Shown in pieces: positions 17,836-19,714 of a DNA stretch of 64,000 nucleotides (positions are counted from its first letter, which is position 1; every line of letters starts with the position of its first letter). A program made the position numbers and the translations under genes. The DNA comes from a virus: the UHGV virus genome UHGV-1519562. The stretch is one strand, 5' to 3'. The notes below the pieces were generated by a model that ran no database searches, was not told where the DNA came from, and was given only the letters and a program-made list of their open reading frames with translations.

Positions 17836-19080
17836 ATGAGTTATAATTATGATGAAACTTTTAAATATCCTATTAATGCGTGTTTGAATTTAACAGATAA
17901 TTGTAATCTACAATGCAAATATTGTTTCGTACATCAAAAGCCGCATTATATGGATTTAAAAATGGCTAAAAATGCGATAGATTTTTTAGCTAAAAATTTA
18001 GTAAAATATAAAGAGCTTACTGGAAAAGAAAATCAAAAGAATGAAGTAACATTTTTTGGTGGTGAACCAACTCTTTTGTGGGAACAAATTATTGTCCCTA
18101 TTGTTGAATATACCAAAGAGAAATATCCTAATACCTTTCATTTTGATATGACCACAAATGGGACTCTTCTAAATGAAGAAAGAGTTAAATTTTGTTATGA
18201 TAATGGTATTAAACTTCTTCTTTCTATTGATGGAATAAAAGAAGTACAGGATTATAATCGGCCTTGTCGAGATACAAATTTAAGTAGTTTTGATTTAGTT
18301 GGGAAGAATATTCCTATTATTCTTAAATATTTTCCTAATACTACTTTTCGCTCTACTCTTTACCAGCCAACAATAGATAAAATGTTTGAATCATTTTTGT
18401 TCGCAGAAAAGTGTGGTTTTAGACAAATTTTTATGTGTCCAAATGCTAGAGAAGAATGGTCAGAAGAAAATATTAAAATTTTAAGAGAAGAAATTGGGAA
18501 AATTATTACTTATACGACTATGAATTACATTGAAGGGAAAATTCCCATTCTTTATTCTAATTTAGATAGTGCTTTTGATGATATTATTGATATAGACCTT
18601 CAAACTTATACTAAAAATTTTTCTGATATATCCCCTTCTCGCGGAGTTCGCAGATGTGGTTTAGGAACAGGTTCTATTTCTATCGCTTATGATGGTAAAA
18701 TTTATGGATGTCAAGAGCAAGATTCAAGAGATGAAAATGATTATTTTTATATTGGGGATATTTTTGATGGTATCAATATAGAAAAACATAAGAAAATGCT
18801 AACTGATTATAATGAAGCAATAACTATAATTAGTTCTAAAAAAGAATTATGTAGTAATTGTAAGCTACGACAAGCTTGTATTCATAAAGTTTGTCCTTCT
18901 GTTTCGCATGATATGTTTAATAATTTTTTCATTAGACCATCTATTGATTGTATTTACAATCAAATTCTTCTTGAAGGTGGAATTTTAATGATGAAAATTC
19001 TTGTCGAACAAGAGAAAAATCAATTTTTTAAAGAATATTTAGATTATAAATTAGAAGGTGGTGAATCTATTGGGTTGTGA
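17836..19080 (+). CDS. radical SAM enzyme with C-terminal SPASM-type auxiliary cluster domain
   Basis: CNLQCKYC (CX3CX2C), FGGEPTL glycine-rich SAM motif, C-terminal Cys cluster CGLGTGS...YGCQE...CSNCKLRQACIHKVCPS. Confidence 0.75.
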   Translation: MSYNYDETFKYPINACLNLTDNCNLQCKYCFVHQKPHYMDLKMAKNAIDFLAKNLVKYKELTGKENQKNEVTFFGGEPTLLWEQIIVPIVEYTKEKYPNTFHFDMTTNGTLLNEERVKFCYDNGIKLLLSIDGIKEVQDYNRPCRDTNLSSFDLVGKNIPIILKYFPNTTFRSTLYQPTIDKMFESFLFAEKCGFRQIFMCPNAREEWSEENIKILREEIGKIITYTTMNYIEGKIPILYSNLDSAFDDIIDIDLQTYTKNFSDISPSRGVRRCGLGTGSISIAYDGKIYGCQEQDSRDENDYFYIGDIFDGINIEKHKKMLTDYNEAITIISSKKELCSNCKLRQACIHKVCPSVSHDMFNNFFIRPSIDCIYNQILLEGGILMMKILVEQEKNQFFKEYLDYKLEGGESIGL

Positions 19081-19714
19081 AAAATGTAATTCAGGATGTC
19101 AATCTTGTAATAGTTGCGAATCATGTGATTCTTGTGAAAAATGTGATTCTGGTTGCATGAAAGGTGATAAATGCTCCGGCTGTAATGATTGTCAATCTTT
19201 TTGTGAAGATGGCCATCAAAGGGTAGGTAGTTTTAGTTGGGGAGCTTGTACTGCAAGAGGACAACAATTTTTTACATTAAGTACATGGAATAGTATTTAT
19301 AAATTTATTTGTAATGCTTATGCTAAAGGTACTAAAAAAAATGGTGGAAGTCCTGGTATCAGTAGTGGTGGAATTACTCAATCTTCTATGAGAGCAATAG
19401 ATTTTAATGCAGTTAGTAGAGCATTAAATGGTTTGGGCGACCATAGTGGTACTGCATCTAGTGTTTCTCCAGGAGATGACCTTTTAGGTTCTTATTTTTC
19501 TGGTTTAGAGACTGCGGCAAATACATTAAAATATAAAAAAGATCAATGTAATAAATGTAATGCAAATTGTGATGTTGCTTGTGATACTTGTGAAAGCTGC
19601 GATAGAGGTTGTGAAAAATGTAACAGAGGTAATTGTGGAAGATGTAATTCTGGTTGTCAAAGAAATTCAAGCACTTCGTGTGCCGATCCTCCTTCCTGTA
19701 CAAGTGGGCAATAA
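19070..19714 (+). CDS. cysteine-repeat protein (CxxC repeats at both termini); candidate radical SAM substrate
   Basis: N-terminal CEKCNSGCQSCNSCESCDSCEKCDSGC and C-terminal CNKCNANCDVACDTCESCDRGCEKCNRGNCGRCNSGC; start overlaps stop of the radical SAM gene. Confidence 0.55.
   Translation: MGCEKCNSGCQSCNSCESCDSCEKCDSGCMKGDKCSGCNDCQSFCEDGHQRVGSFSWGACTARGQQFFTLSTWNSIYKFICNAYAKGTKKNGGSPGISSGGITQSSMRAIDFNAVSRALNGLGDHSGTASSVSPGDDLLGSYFSGLETAANTLKYKKDQCNKCNANCDVACDTCESCDRGCEKCNRGNCGRCNSGCQRNSSTSCADPPSCTSGQ

What the first reader, a model, noticed from the sequence alone, without database searches (positions are those of the whole stretch)
17836..19714. Radical SAM/SPASM enzyme translationally coupled to a cysteine-repeat protein, just downstream of the tail-fibre genes
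The 414-aa enzyme has CX3CX2C (CNLQCKYC), a GGEP SAM motif and a C-terminal SPASM-like Cys cluster. The next ORF overlaps its stop and encodes ~214 aa with dense CxxC repeats at both termini around a Ser/Gly-rich linker. rSAM-SPASM enzymes are known to install thioether or other cross-links on Cys-rich peptides (sactipeptide/ranthipeptide-type maturases). An enzyme-substrate pair placed in a phage structural region suggests either a post-translationally cross-linked virion or adsorption component or a phage-encoded RiPP-like product; I do not recall either as an established phage feature.
Basis: partly seen in the sequence, partly recalled or inferred. Interest (0 to 1): 0.85.

Follow-up and report, generated by a model that had tools for sequence, protein, structure and literature searches.

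The report
Phage enzyme that staples fibre proteins
A gut phage encodes an iron-sulfur radical enzyme, always paired with a protein carrying dense cysteine arrays; relatives of that protein have tail-fibre features, so the enzyme probably installs permanent sulfur cross-links in a virus particle protein, which has not been described for any virus.

Summary
Window 17836-19080 encodes a radical SAM/SPASM enzyme with all ten cluster cysteines. Its stop overlaps a 214-aa ORF (19070-19714) with 28 Cys in two terminal arrays.

The middle of that ORF is a conserved ~110-aa helical domain, not a Ser/Gly linker. The enzyme is nearest to thioether-forming maturases (PapB, CcpM, SCIFF/CteB, QhpD) but scores below every family cutoff and has no RRE domain.

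Across the window and 48 related loci, 50 of 51 such enzyme genes are directly followed by an array-bearing ORF. Of 53 array-bearing frames among 2,313, 50 lie in that position. In every lineage the residue after an array Cys is Asp/Glu/Asn/Gln (50-98% against a 23-39% background), the residue types that known thioether enzymes use as acceptors.

Partner homologues carry FN3 domains or a Peptidase_S74 tail-fibre chaperone domain. In Peptoniphilus duerdenii the pair lies between baseplate and tail-fibre genes. In recoded relatives both genes carry in-frame TAG, as late genes do.

Best reading: enzyme-installed thioether staples on a virion fibre or decoration protein, rather than a secreted RiPP. 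The chemistry and virion location are untested. No description was found in the searchable literature.

The parts
17370..17399 (+). Intrinsic-terminator-like hairpin (12-13 bp stem plus T-run). It ends the upstream fibre-like gene cluster and lies inside the mis-called first 34 codons of the '146-aa' ORF.
   Evidence: 13 pairs, 5 GC, T-run; dG -17.8 kcal/mol, z -4.43, 0 of 200 shuffles fold as well.
17410..17439 (+). Promoter-like site (TTGGAA-18-TATAAT) in front of the cassette.
   Evidence: 10 of 12 matches. This is a consensus match only; function is inferred.
17473..17811 (+). 112-aa small protein: a three-stranded beta sheet plus a 69-residue helix, with an Rv2632c/Acb4-like fold. It is a frequent neighbour of the pair, probably not part of the enzyme-substrate system.
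   Evidence: Homologues are all 112 aa. AF2 pLDDT 84. Foldseek matches Rv1738, Rv2632c and SPO1 Acb4 at prob 0.99-1.0 but with weak E-values. Present upstream of the rSAM gene in 6 lineages only. No in-frame TAG in recoded relatives, unlike the pair.
17836..19080 (+). Radical SAM/SPASM enzyme, 414 aa. CX3CX2C at C23/27/30 (nt 17902-17925), GGEP at nt 18058-18069, SPASM cysteines C274, C292, C339, C342, C348, C353, C372 (nt 18655-18951). No N-terminal RRE domain.
19070..19714 (+). Cys-array partner protein, 214 aa from TTG 19070 (alternative GTG 19058, 218 aa); predicted substrate. Its start overlaps the enzyme's stop codon (19078-19080).
19076..19204 (+). N-terminal array: 13 Cys (aa 3-45) with C-x2/3-C spacing and D/E/N/Q after most Cys. 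It ends in the conserved junction motif CNDCQSFC (C-x3-Q-x-F-C).
19205..19546 (+). Conserved central domain (~114 aa, three predicted helices). It is homologous to the C-terminal domain of FN3-type partners and to the core of the S74-bearing partner.
19547..19699 (+). C-terminal array: 11 contiguous Cys (aa 160-196) plus 2 more (aa 204, 210).
13507..17366 (+). Five tightly packed upstream ORFs (13507, 14743, 15130, 15658, 16896), fibre-like by composition. Their linkage to the pair is conserved in other lineages.
   Evidence: Weak tail evidence: phrog_27786 N-terminal hit at 2.6e-5; Rhodococcus phage tail protein at 2e-4; shared N-terminal motif with the L047 tail fibre at E 0.001. Synteny with the pair in L013/14, L015/44 and L010/11.
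19715..20078 (+). Three near-consensus sigma-70-type promoters (TTGAAA-N16/17-TATAAT) that start new units (a small ORF and a tRNA array). They mark the 3' boundary of the cassette.
   Evidence: 11 of 12 matches each, at 19715, 19800, 20051.

Best explanation
The two genes form an enzyme-substrate pair.

Enzyme. It is an oxygen-sensitive, three-[4Fe-4S]-cluster radical SAM/SPASM protein made in a strictly anaerobic host. It cleaves SAM to a 5'-deoxyadenosyl radical, abstracts a side-chain hydrogen from the Asp/Glu/Asn/Gln that follows each array cysteine, and joins that carbon to a nearby cysteine sulfur held on an auxiliary cluster. Repeated along both arrays, this would install on the order of 10-25 thioether staples per chain.

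Substrate. It is not a leader-plus-core peptide that is exported. It is a late-expressed, probably trimeric, virion-associated fibre or decoration protein. Its disordered Cys arms become rigid rods that resist reduction and proteases. These would serve in place of disulfides, which cannot form or persist in an anoxic, reducing gut. The conserved central domain is the fold, and possibly the docking element, shared with the FN3- and S74-bearing versions.

Shown: gene anatomy, motifs, family relations, co-occurrence, domain fusions, tail-module location in a prophage, and the TAG class.
Inferred: that the partner is the substrate, that the product is a thioether, which residues are linked, and that the window's own protein is in the virion.
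For: 1. Enzyme class.
- Best profile hits are all Cys-thioether maturases: PapB 1.1e-51, CcpM 7.8e-36, nif11-type 5.4e-35, SCIFF 1.2e-32, QhpD 5.3e-26. anSME reaches only 1.3e-19.
- Best solved structure is CteB, 2.5e-22.
- All 10 cluster cysteines are invariant in 15 lineages that share only 27-65% identity.

2. Pairing.
- 50 of 51 enzyme genes with downstream sequence are followed by an array-bearing frame.
- 50 of the 53 array-bearing frames among 2,313 frames are in that position.
- Starts overlap or abut the enzyme stop.
- The one 'miss' (L020) has the partner, with a 5-Cys array.

3. Acceptor pattern.
- The residue after an array Cys is D/E/N/Q in 76% of cases across the family, against 25% background.
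- The figure is 50-98% in every lineage examined.
- An invariant C-x3-Q/E junction motif is present.
- Known enzymes use such acceptors: PapB links Cys to Asp/Glu at i+1 to i+7; NxxcB links Cys to Asn; QhpD links Cys to Asp/Glu in a non-RiPP protein.

4. Structural-protein evidence from homologues.
- The L020/21 partner carries Peptidase_S74 (35.2 bits, cutoff 22) and matches many tail-fibre PHROGs. It aligns to the window family at 88.6%, E 2.6e-6.
- FN3-type partners share the central domain (96.1%, E 3.5e-9).
- In P. duerdenii ATCC BAA-1640 the gene order is tape measure, tail, baseplate wedge, tail, rSAM, array/FN3 protein, tail fibre, endolysin.

5. Late-gene class.
- In Phass-1 only the pair carries in-frame TAG among 10 neighbouring genes.
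- In L002 and L008 the pair is recoded while the small gene and the downstream genes are not.
- The Phass-1 paper states that suppressed stop codons are characteristic mainly of late genes.

6. Fibre-like genes stay linked to the pair in four divergent lineages.

7. Anaerobic setting: the window carries NrdD; hosts appear to be Clostridia and Peptoniphilus.

8. The arrays are predicted disordered on their own (pLDDT <50). This fits a need for cross-linking, or for metal.
Against: - No biochemical or proteomic data exist; everything is comparative.
- The enzyme scores below the curated cutoff of every named family, and the SPASM Pfam model is sub-threshold (15.6 against 21.5 bits).
- The window's own partner has no FN3, S74 or recognisable virion-attachment domain.
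- Its cassette is separated from the fibre-like genes by a terminator and has its own sigma-70-like promoter.
- In several relatives the pair lies among non-structural genes: HNH, FNT and HSP20 in L005; topoisomerase in Phass-1; dUTPase and RuvC in L010.
- In L010, RuvC also has a high TAG density, so TAG is not a clean marker of late genes.
- Gln has no documented precedent as a thioether acceptor in the papers read.
- Dense CxxC arrays could bind metal instead.
Confidence: 0.5

Rival explanations
1. The arrays are metal- or iron-sulfur-binding modules, metallothionein-like or zinc-ladder-like. They fold around metal ions, perhaps along a trimer axis as in some tail fibres. The rSAM enzyme would then have another target, or use the partner as a cluster or electron carrier.
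For: The arrays are 25-33% Cys with CxxC/CxxxC spacing. They are predicted disordered without ligands. Metal sites in phage fibres are known (own knowledge).
Against: This does not explain the near-absolute pairing with an enzyme of the thioether-forming branch. It does not explain the strong D/E/N/Q preference after each Cys or the invariant C-x3-Q/E motif. No ferredoxin, metallothionein or zinc-finger family matches the partner.
Confidence: 0.15
2. It is a phage-encoded RiPP-like product. The enzyme cross-links the arrays, and the protein or fragments of it are released at lysis as a bacteriocin, signal or exclusion factor rather than built into the virion.
For: The enzyme resembles RiPP maturases. 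The window's partner lacks any virion-attachment domain. The pair behaves as a mobile cassette found in varied neighbourhoods. SCIFF ranthipeptides act in quorum sensing in Clostridia.
Against: The enzyme has no RRE. No protease or exporter is seen in any of the loci examined. Arrays start at residue 3 in the near branch, so there is no leader (the FN3-type partners do have a conserved ~25-aa N-terminal segment, which was not examined as a possible leader or docking motif). Partners are 170-800 aa and are fused to FN3 or S74 domains inside tail modules.
Confidence: 0.12
3. The enzyme acts on the arrays but with different radical chemistry: Cys or Ser oxidation to formylglycine (anSME-like), C-C or C-O cross-links, epimerisation, or inter-subunit rather than intramolecular links.
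For: The enzyme is below the cutoff of every characterised family. SPASM enzymes catalyse many reactions. anSME is the second-best solved structure.
Against: The top five profile matches and the best solved structure are all Cys-thioether formers. The partner has no sulfatase-type C/S-x-P/A-x-R motif (read directly from the sequence). The conserved Cys plus carboxylate/amide dyad fits thioether acceptor rules.
Confidence: 0.13

Closest known systems
PapB/PapA (freyrasin) ranthipeptide system, Paenibacillus polymyxa
   Same: A rSAM/SPASM enzyme with two auxiliary clusters; it is the best profile match (NF047865, 1.1e-51). Its substrate has tandem Cys-plus-acidic-residue motifs (six CXXXD). The acceptor lies C-terminal to the Cys, and i+1 to i+7 are tolerated.
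   Different: The score is 176 against a cutoff of 340, so this enzyme is not a member. According to the paper, PapB recognises its substrate through leader binding to an RRE. Here there is no RRE, and no leader in the near-branch partners. The substrate is a 170-800-aa protein with a folded domain, 13-113 Cys, and Asn/Gln as common partners. It is encoded by phages, with no export genes seen in the loci examined.
CteB/CteA and the SCIFF maturases (TIGR03974; PDB 5WGG)
   Same: It is the closest solved structure (2.5e-22), aligned over the rSAM and SPASM domains. Both come from Clostridia, have Cys-rich substrates and form thioethers.
   Different: The alignment starts at CteB residue 99, so the RRE is missing here. 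The score is 113 against a cutoff of 425. SCIFF precursors are ~45 aa with six Cys, and only one link has been shown.
QhpD/QhpC (quinohemoprotein amine dehydrogenase gamma subunit)
   Same: It is the precedent for a SPASM enzyme placing several Cys-Asp and Cys-Glu thioethers in a protein subunit that is kept rather than exported. The profile match is 5.3e-26.
   Different: The score is 91 against a cutoff of 453. QhpC is a small periplasmic enzyme subunit with three links plus a quinone cofactor. It has no repeat arrays and no viral context.
NxxcB/NxxcA (streptococcal RaS-RiPP)
   Same: It shows that an amide residue (Asn) can accept a Cys thioether at C-beta, in an N-x-x-C arrangement. The arrays here contain many N-x-C and N-x-x-C units.
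   Different: It makes a single link in a short leader-dependent peptide.
Tail fibres and tailspikes with a C-terminal Peptidase_S74 intramolecular chaperone
   Same: The partner of the 42-45%-identical enzyme in L020/L021 carries this domain above the Pfam cutoff and matches many tail-fibre PHROGs.
   Different: The window's partner has no S74 domain. No known S74 fibre is reported to have Cys arrays or a dedicated radical SAM enzyme (own knowledge, plus the negative literature searches).

Membership tests
Radical SAM superfamily | CX3CX2C cluster motif and a match to the core fold profile | tested here: met
   CNLQCKYC at aa 23-30. PF04055 scores 56.8 bits against a cutoff of 29.5. GGEP at aa 75-78.
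SPASM subfamily (two auxiliary 4Fe-4S clusters) | Seven-Cys C-terminal motif: C-x9-17-G-x4-C ... C-x2-C-x5-C-x3/4-C ... C | tested here: met
   C274, C292, C339, C342, C348, C353 and C372 are present and invariant in 15 lineages. The last spacing is x4 rather than the usual x3. The Pfam SPASM model is sub-threshold (15.6 against 21.5 bits).
PapB-family ranthipeptide maturase (NF047865) | Score at or above the curated equivalog cutoff | tested here: not met
   176 bits against a cutoff of 340.
PapB-family ranthipeptide maturase (NF047865) | Substrate with tandem Cys...Asp/Glu motifs, acceptor C-terminal to the Cys | tested here: inconclusive
   C-[DENQ] dyads and C-x3-[DENQ] units are abundant, but Asn/Gln are as common as Asp/Glu. 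Connectivity is unknown.
PapB-family ranthipeptide maturase (NF047865) | Leader peptide recognised by an RRE domain | tested here: not met
   The enzyme core begins at about aa 17. The alignment to CteB starts after its RRE. Near-branch partner arrays start at residue 3.
SCIFF maturase (TIGR03974), CcpM (TIGR04068), CXXX-repeat maturase (TIGR04115), QhpD (TIGR03906) | Score at or above each curated cutoff | tested here: not met
   113 against 425; 124 against 500; 85 against 350; 91 against 453.
Anaerobic sulfatase maturase (TIGR03942) | Score above the cutoff, and a substrate with the C/S-x-P/A-x-R motif | tested here: not met
   70.5 against 349 bits. The motif is absent from the partner sequence.
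Canonical RiPP gene cluster | Short precursor with leader and core, plus a protease and/or exporter nearby | tested here: not met
   Partners are 170-800 aa. The near-branch partners have no leader. No peptidase or ABC transporter was seen in the neighbourhoods examined.
Phage tail fibre or virion structural protein | A recognisable fibre or virion domain in the protein itself | tested here: not met
   The window's partner has no Pfam, NCBIfam or PHROG hit. Only its homologues carry S74 or FN3.
Phage tail fibre or virion structural protein | Encoded within a tail or baseplate module | tested here: inconclusive
   Met in the P. duerdenii prophage and the L023 type. In the window it lies next to weakly supported fibre-like genes but in a separate transcription unit.
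Phage tail fibre or virion structural protein | Physical presence in purified virions | not testable with these tools
   This needs virion proteomics. No cultured phage with the module was found in the phage collection.
Prokaryotic viperin (pVip) defence | Full-length match to the pVip profile | tested here: not met
   Only the N-terminal rSAM core (aa 16-137) matches.

The most novel reading that the evidence does not exclude
Phages of strictly anaerobic Firmicutes carry their own radical SAM 'stapling' enzyme. It converts expandable Cys-[Asn/Gln/Asp/Glu] repeat arrays on tail-fibre or decoration proteins into ladders of thioether bonds. This would be the first enzyme-installed covalent cross-linking of a viral structural protein by radical chemistry, the largest known thioether-modified proteins (up to 113 Cys in one chain), and possibly the first use of Gln as an acceptor, all without leader or RRE recognition.
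Probability: 0.4. Interest if true: 0.88.

Novelty: new variant of a known kind. Interest (0 to 1): 0.8.

Why it matters
- It would extend radical SAM thioether chemistry from small exported peptides to full-size viral structural proteins.
- It would reveal a strategy for hardening virions where disulfides are unavailable.
- It would provide a leader-independent enzyme that processes long repeat arrays, which is of interest for making reduction-proof stapled proteins.
- It would give a function to two uncharacterised families: at least 445 enzyme clusters and about 330 partner clusters at 50% identity. These are common in gut phages, including stop-codon-recoded ones.
- A cultured carrier, Peptoniphilus duerdenii ATCC BAA-1640, makes the idea directly testable.

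Tried and rejected
- tblastn of the partner against 50,697 phage records found nothing. The likely causes are low-complexity masking and in-frame TAGs; the Phass-1 homologue had to be found by eye in an unannotated gap.
- The partner alignment was too variable to seed a locus scan, so the enzyme alignment was used instead.
- The AF2 model of the partner was poor (pLDDT 48.8), and Foldseek against PDB gave nothing.
- PDB sequence searches for the fibre-like ORFs were uninformative.
- Megablast of the region against phage records found no match.
- A three-gene module including the small upstream protein was considered and rejected. The small protein is present in only 6 lineages, belongs to the non-recoded gene class, and has an Acb4/Rv2632c-like fold.
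- Sulfatase maturase, viperin and cofactor maturase readings were rejected on scores and motifs.
- A recent slippage artefact as the origin of the window's arrays was rejected.
- Six of the ten literature searches were aimed at a prior description of such a system (include these). None found one. The library does not include most subscription-journal papers.
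Full report
OBSERVATION

The window carries a 414-aa ORF at 17836-19080 and an overlapping downstream ORF that ends at 19714.

The first ORF has these features:
- CNLQCKYC (C23/27/30)
- GGEP at aa 75-78
- seven C-terminal cysteines in the SPASM arrangement: C274-x17-C292 with G-x4-C, then C339-x2-C342-x5-C348-x4-C353, then C372

Pfam Radical_SAM is significant at 56.8 bits against a cutoff of 29.5. The SPASM model alone is sub-threshold at 15.6 against 21.5 bits.

For the second ORF, the ORF listing gives a GTG start at 19058. 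An AGGTGG Shine-Dalgarno sequence and the family's M-x-(x)-C N-terminus favour TTG at 19070. That gives 214 aa and an 11-nt overlap with the enzyme gene.

The second ORF has 28 Cys. Thirteen are in an N-terminal array (aa 3-45). Thirteen are in the C-terminal part: 11 contiguous at aa 160-196, plus C204 and C210. Two single Cys lie in the central domain. It matches no Pfam, NCBIfam, PHROG or PADLOC family.

It is the only Cys-rich ORF and the only large CX3CX2C ORF in the window. The arrays are not DNA-level tandem repeats.

One correction is needed. The middle ~114 residues are a conserved domain with invariant F, W and N positions and a moderately confident three-helix prediction. They are not a Ser/Gly linker.

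THE GENOME

The window is phage DNA with low GC, about 30%. It carries:
- a replication module: PolC-like polymerase, DnaB, primase, RecJ, topoisomerase II, ligases, and anaerobic NrdD
- sixteen tRNA genes
- homing endonucleases

A 137.7-kb IMG/VR contig is 97% identical at the enzyme (L012). No close relative is in GenBank phage records.

THE ENZYME

The five best NCBIfam matches are all maturases that link cysteine sulfur to carbon:

| Family | E-value | Bits | Cutoff |
|---|---|---|---|
| PapB | 1.1e-51 | 176 | 340 |
| CcpM | 7.8e-36 | 124 | 500 |
| nif11-type | 5.4e-35 | | |
| SCIFF | 1.2e-32 | 113 | 425 |
| ScfB-related | 6.3e-32 | | |

QhpD follows at 5.3e-26. The sulfatase maturase reaches only 1.3e-19.

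The closest solved structure is CteB (5WGG, 2.5e-22). The alignment begins at CteB residue 99, after its RRE. The profile coordinates show the same thing. This enzyme therefore lacks the peptide-leader recognition domain.

It is below the curated cutoff of every named family. It works like these enzymes but is not a member of any of them.

The family has at least 445 clusters at E<=1e-20, all unnamed and all from metagenomes, many on contigs of 100-230 kb. All ten cluster cysteines are invariant across 15 lineages that share only 27-65% identity.

THE PAIRING

The partner family has 20 clusters by word-indexed search. A full profile search finds 329 representative clusters at E<=1e-3, of which 171 are at E<=1e-10. 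Most are 150-260 aa and match the profile end to end.

Phage Phass-1 has the pair, although it is unannotated. Its enzyme gene is split by an in-frame TAG, and its partner gene lies in an 'empty' gap with three in-frame TAGs. hhalign gives 99%, E 5e-18.

I counted over the window and 48 fetched loci, reading TAG as sense:
- 2,313 frames of at least 80 aa were examined.
- 53 contain a run of six or more closely spaced Cys.
- 50 of those 53 lie directly downstream of an enzyme homologue.
- 50 of 51 enzyme genes with downstream sequence have such a partner.
- The exception, L020, has the partner with a five-Cys run.

About 22 distinct lineages are represented.

Array length is plastic. One contig has two enzyme genes, each followed by a giant partner: 515 aa with 113 Cys, and 539 aa with 96 Cys. 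These were built by recent 9-nt (C-N-S) and 180-nt duplications.

THE ARRAY GRAMMAR

Cys-Cys spacing is 3 or 4. The residue after each Cys is Asp, Glu, Asn or Gln in 76% of cases, against a 25% background.

The rule holds in every lineage at 50-98%. The close branch prefers C-x-x-C with N/D/E/Q. The distant branch prefers C-x-x-x-C with Q/E only.

The junction between the N-terminal array and the domain is the best-conserved motif: an invariant C-x3-Q, or E in some relatives, followed by x-[FYW]-C.

These are the residue types and distances used by characterised enzymes:
- PapB links Cys to Asp/Glu placed C-terminally at i+1 to i+7, with the Cys bound to auxiliary cluster 1 (PMC12373016).
- NxxcB links Cys23 to the upstream Asn20.
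- QhpD makes Cys-Asp and Cys-Glu links in a protein subunit that is not a RiPP (PMC8326336).

Gln as an acceptor would be new, as far as those papers show.

WHAT THE PARTNER IS

Three architectures share the central domain:
- The window type is array, domain, array.
- The partner of a 42-45%-identical enzyme (L020/L021) is short array, domain, array, then Peptidase_S74. S74 is the self-cleaving trimerisation chaperone of tail fibres and tailspikes. It scores 35.2 bits against a cutoff of 22 and matches many tail-fibre PHROGs. hhalign to the window family gives 88.6%, E 2.6e-6.
- The partners of the ~35%-identical enzymes are N-terminal array, FN3 domain(s), then the same domain at the C-terminus. 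FN3 scores 3.9e-7 and 1.7e-8, and the domain match is 96.1%, E 3.5e-9.

No bacterial genome among 100,044 species representatives has a close relative. The nearest are in Peptoniphilus.

In P. duerdenii ATCC BAA-1640 the gene order is tape measure, tail protein, baseplate wedge, tail protein, enzyme, array/FN3 protein, tail fibre, endolysin.

These facts favour a virion fibre or decoration protein over an exported peptide. None of the loci examined shows a protease or exporter.

TIMING

In Phass-1 the pair is the only recoded pair among ten neighbouring genes. In L002 and L008 the enzyme and partner carry in-frame TAG, while the small upstream gene and the downstream DUF2828 and SLH genes carry none.

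The Phass-1 paper reports TAG in 41 ORFs and notes that suppressed stops mark mainly late genes (PMC10607447).

This is suggestive and not clean, because RuvC in L010 is also TAG-rich.

LOCAL CONTEXT IN THE WINDOW

The five ORFs at 13507-17366 are fibre-like mostly by composition. Only 13507 has a weak N-terminal tail-protein match. Their linkage to the pair is nevertheless conserved in L013/14 and L015/44 (directly upstream) and in L010/11 (downstream).

A strong terminator hairpin lies at 17370-17399 (dG -17.8 kcal/mol, z -4.4). A promoter-like site lies at 17410-17439. Together they separate those ORFs from a cassette made of a 112-aa gene (true start 17473), the enzyme and the partner. Three near-consensus promoters follow the cassette.

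The 112-aa protein models well (pLDDT 84). It resembles Rv2632c, Rv1738 and the SPO1 anti-CBASS sponge Acb4. It occurs with the pair in only six lineages and belongs to the non-recoded class. I treat it as a neighbour, not a component.

MECHANISM, AND WHAT IS INFERRED

I consider the following most likely, at about 0.5. The enzyme installs many Cys-to-D/E/N/Q side-chain thioethers along both arrays of a late, probably trimeric, virion-associated protein. This gives arms that are rigid and resistant to reduction and proteases. Docking would go through the conserved domain rather than a leader.

The rationale is that disulfides cannot be made or kept in an anoxic gut. An oxygen-labile radical enzyme, in turn, is usable only in such hosts; the phage also carries anaerobic NrdD.

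The substrate assignment, the bond type, the connectivity and the virion location of the window's own protein are all inferences.

Rivals:
- metal-binding arrays, 0.15
- a RiPP-like product released at lysis, 0.12
- different radical chemistry on the arrays, 0.13

COMPARISON AND NOVELTY

The system works like ranthipeptide, SCIFF and QhpD maturation but fails every membership cutoff. It lacks an RRE, and its near-branch partners lack a leader. It acts on proteins of 170-800 aa and is encoded by phages, in or near tail modules.

The literature searches aimed at prior art found no description. The Phass-1 paper does not mention these genes. The library omits most subscription journals, so a prior description cannot be excluded.

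I rate it a new variant of a known kind, with high interest, pending the co-expression and mass-spectrometry test and virion proteomics in the Peptoniphilus prophage.

Noticed in passing
window 17473-17811: The ORF listed as 146 aa (17371-17811) really starts at 17473 and is 112 aa; its listed 5' part is the terminator hairpin. The protein models as a three-stranded sheet plus one long helix. It resembles Rv2632c, Rv1738 and the phage SPO1 anti-CBASS sponge Acb4 (Foldseek prob 0.99-1.0, weak E-values; sub-threshold Pfam Rv2632c-like and Phage_gp49_66). It may be a nucleotide-signal sponge.
   Followed up: partly
window 19715-20080: Three near-consensus promoters (TTGAAA-N16/17-TATAAT, 11 of 12 matches) lie within 370 bp, sharing flanking sequence. 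They precede a 64-aa ORF (19860-20054) and a seven-tRNA array.
   Followed up: partly
window 10234-12942 and 20167-21479: There are sixteen tRNA genes in two arrays. One (12158-12230) is called with a four-base anticodon (tgaa) and is a possible frameshift-suppressor or odd tRNA. GIY-YIG (11476-11952) and PD-(D/E)XK (9484-9939) endonuclease genes are interspersed.
   Followed up: no
window 21535-23058, 24599-25495, 27510-28787: These encode a DUF2828/DUF7788 protein (phrog_850 'RNA-binding protein'), a nucleotidyltransferase and an RNA ligase, next to the tRNA array. Together they look like an RNA or tRNA repair set. The DUF2828 gene stays downstream of the rSAM pair in L002, L008, L013, L015 and L017.
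   Followed up: partly
window 23113-24174: A phage-encoded subtilase (Peptidase_S8) is fused to an S-layer homology domain. SLH proteins also occur in L005 and L008. This points to a host with SLH-anchoring cell-wall polymers.
   Followed up: no
L001, L002, L008, L010, L013-L021 (TAG); L005/L006 (TGA): Most relatives that carry the pair are stop-codon-recoded phages: TAG is read through in most, and TGA is read as Trp in L005/L006. The window phage shows no in-frame stops in these genes. In GenBank record OQ749652 (Phass-1) the rSAM gene is annotated as two fragments and the partner gene is not annotated at all.
   Followed up: partly
L010 5021-10903 (ERZ28653857 scaffold_1510): There are two tandem enzyme-partner pairs with giant partners: 515 aa with 113 Cys, and 539 aa with 96 Cys. 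They were built from recent 9-nt (C-N-S) and 180-nt duplications. L048 (a Clostridiales MAG) has an 811-aa frame with 84 Cys.
   Followed up: partly
L002 3228-5898; L008 3377-7437; L020 5151-6011: Further radical SAM genes lie just upstream of the pair in some relatives. L002 and L008 each have two genes of ~450 aa, and L008 also has an aldo-keto reductase/ferredoxin gene. L020/21 have one gene of ~287 aa. These may perform additional modifications or belong to a second system.
   Followed up: no
L002 10793-11122; L008 9958-10296: A conserved ~110-aa basic protein with the motif HQYSKNKIHCSCPxCSPKTRNKG directly follows the partner gene in two lineages. It is absent from the window.
   Followed up: no
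L023, L022, L042, L043 partner N-termini: The FN3-type partners begin with a conserved ~25-aa segment ([DE]ELIx[VI]PxFL...) before the array. It could be a leader-like docking motif or a virion-attachment motif. The near-branch and Peptoniphilus partners lack it.
   Followed up: no
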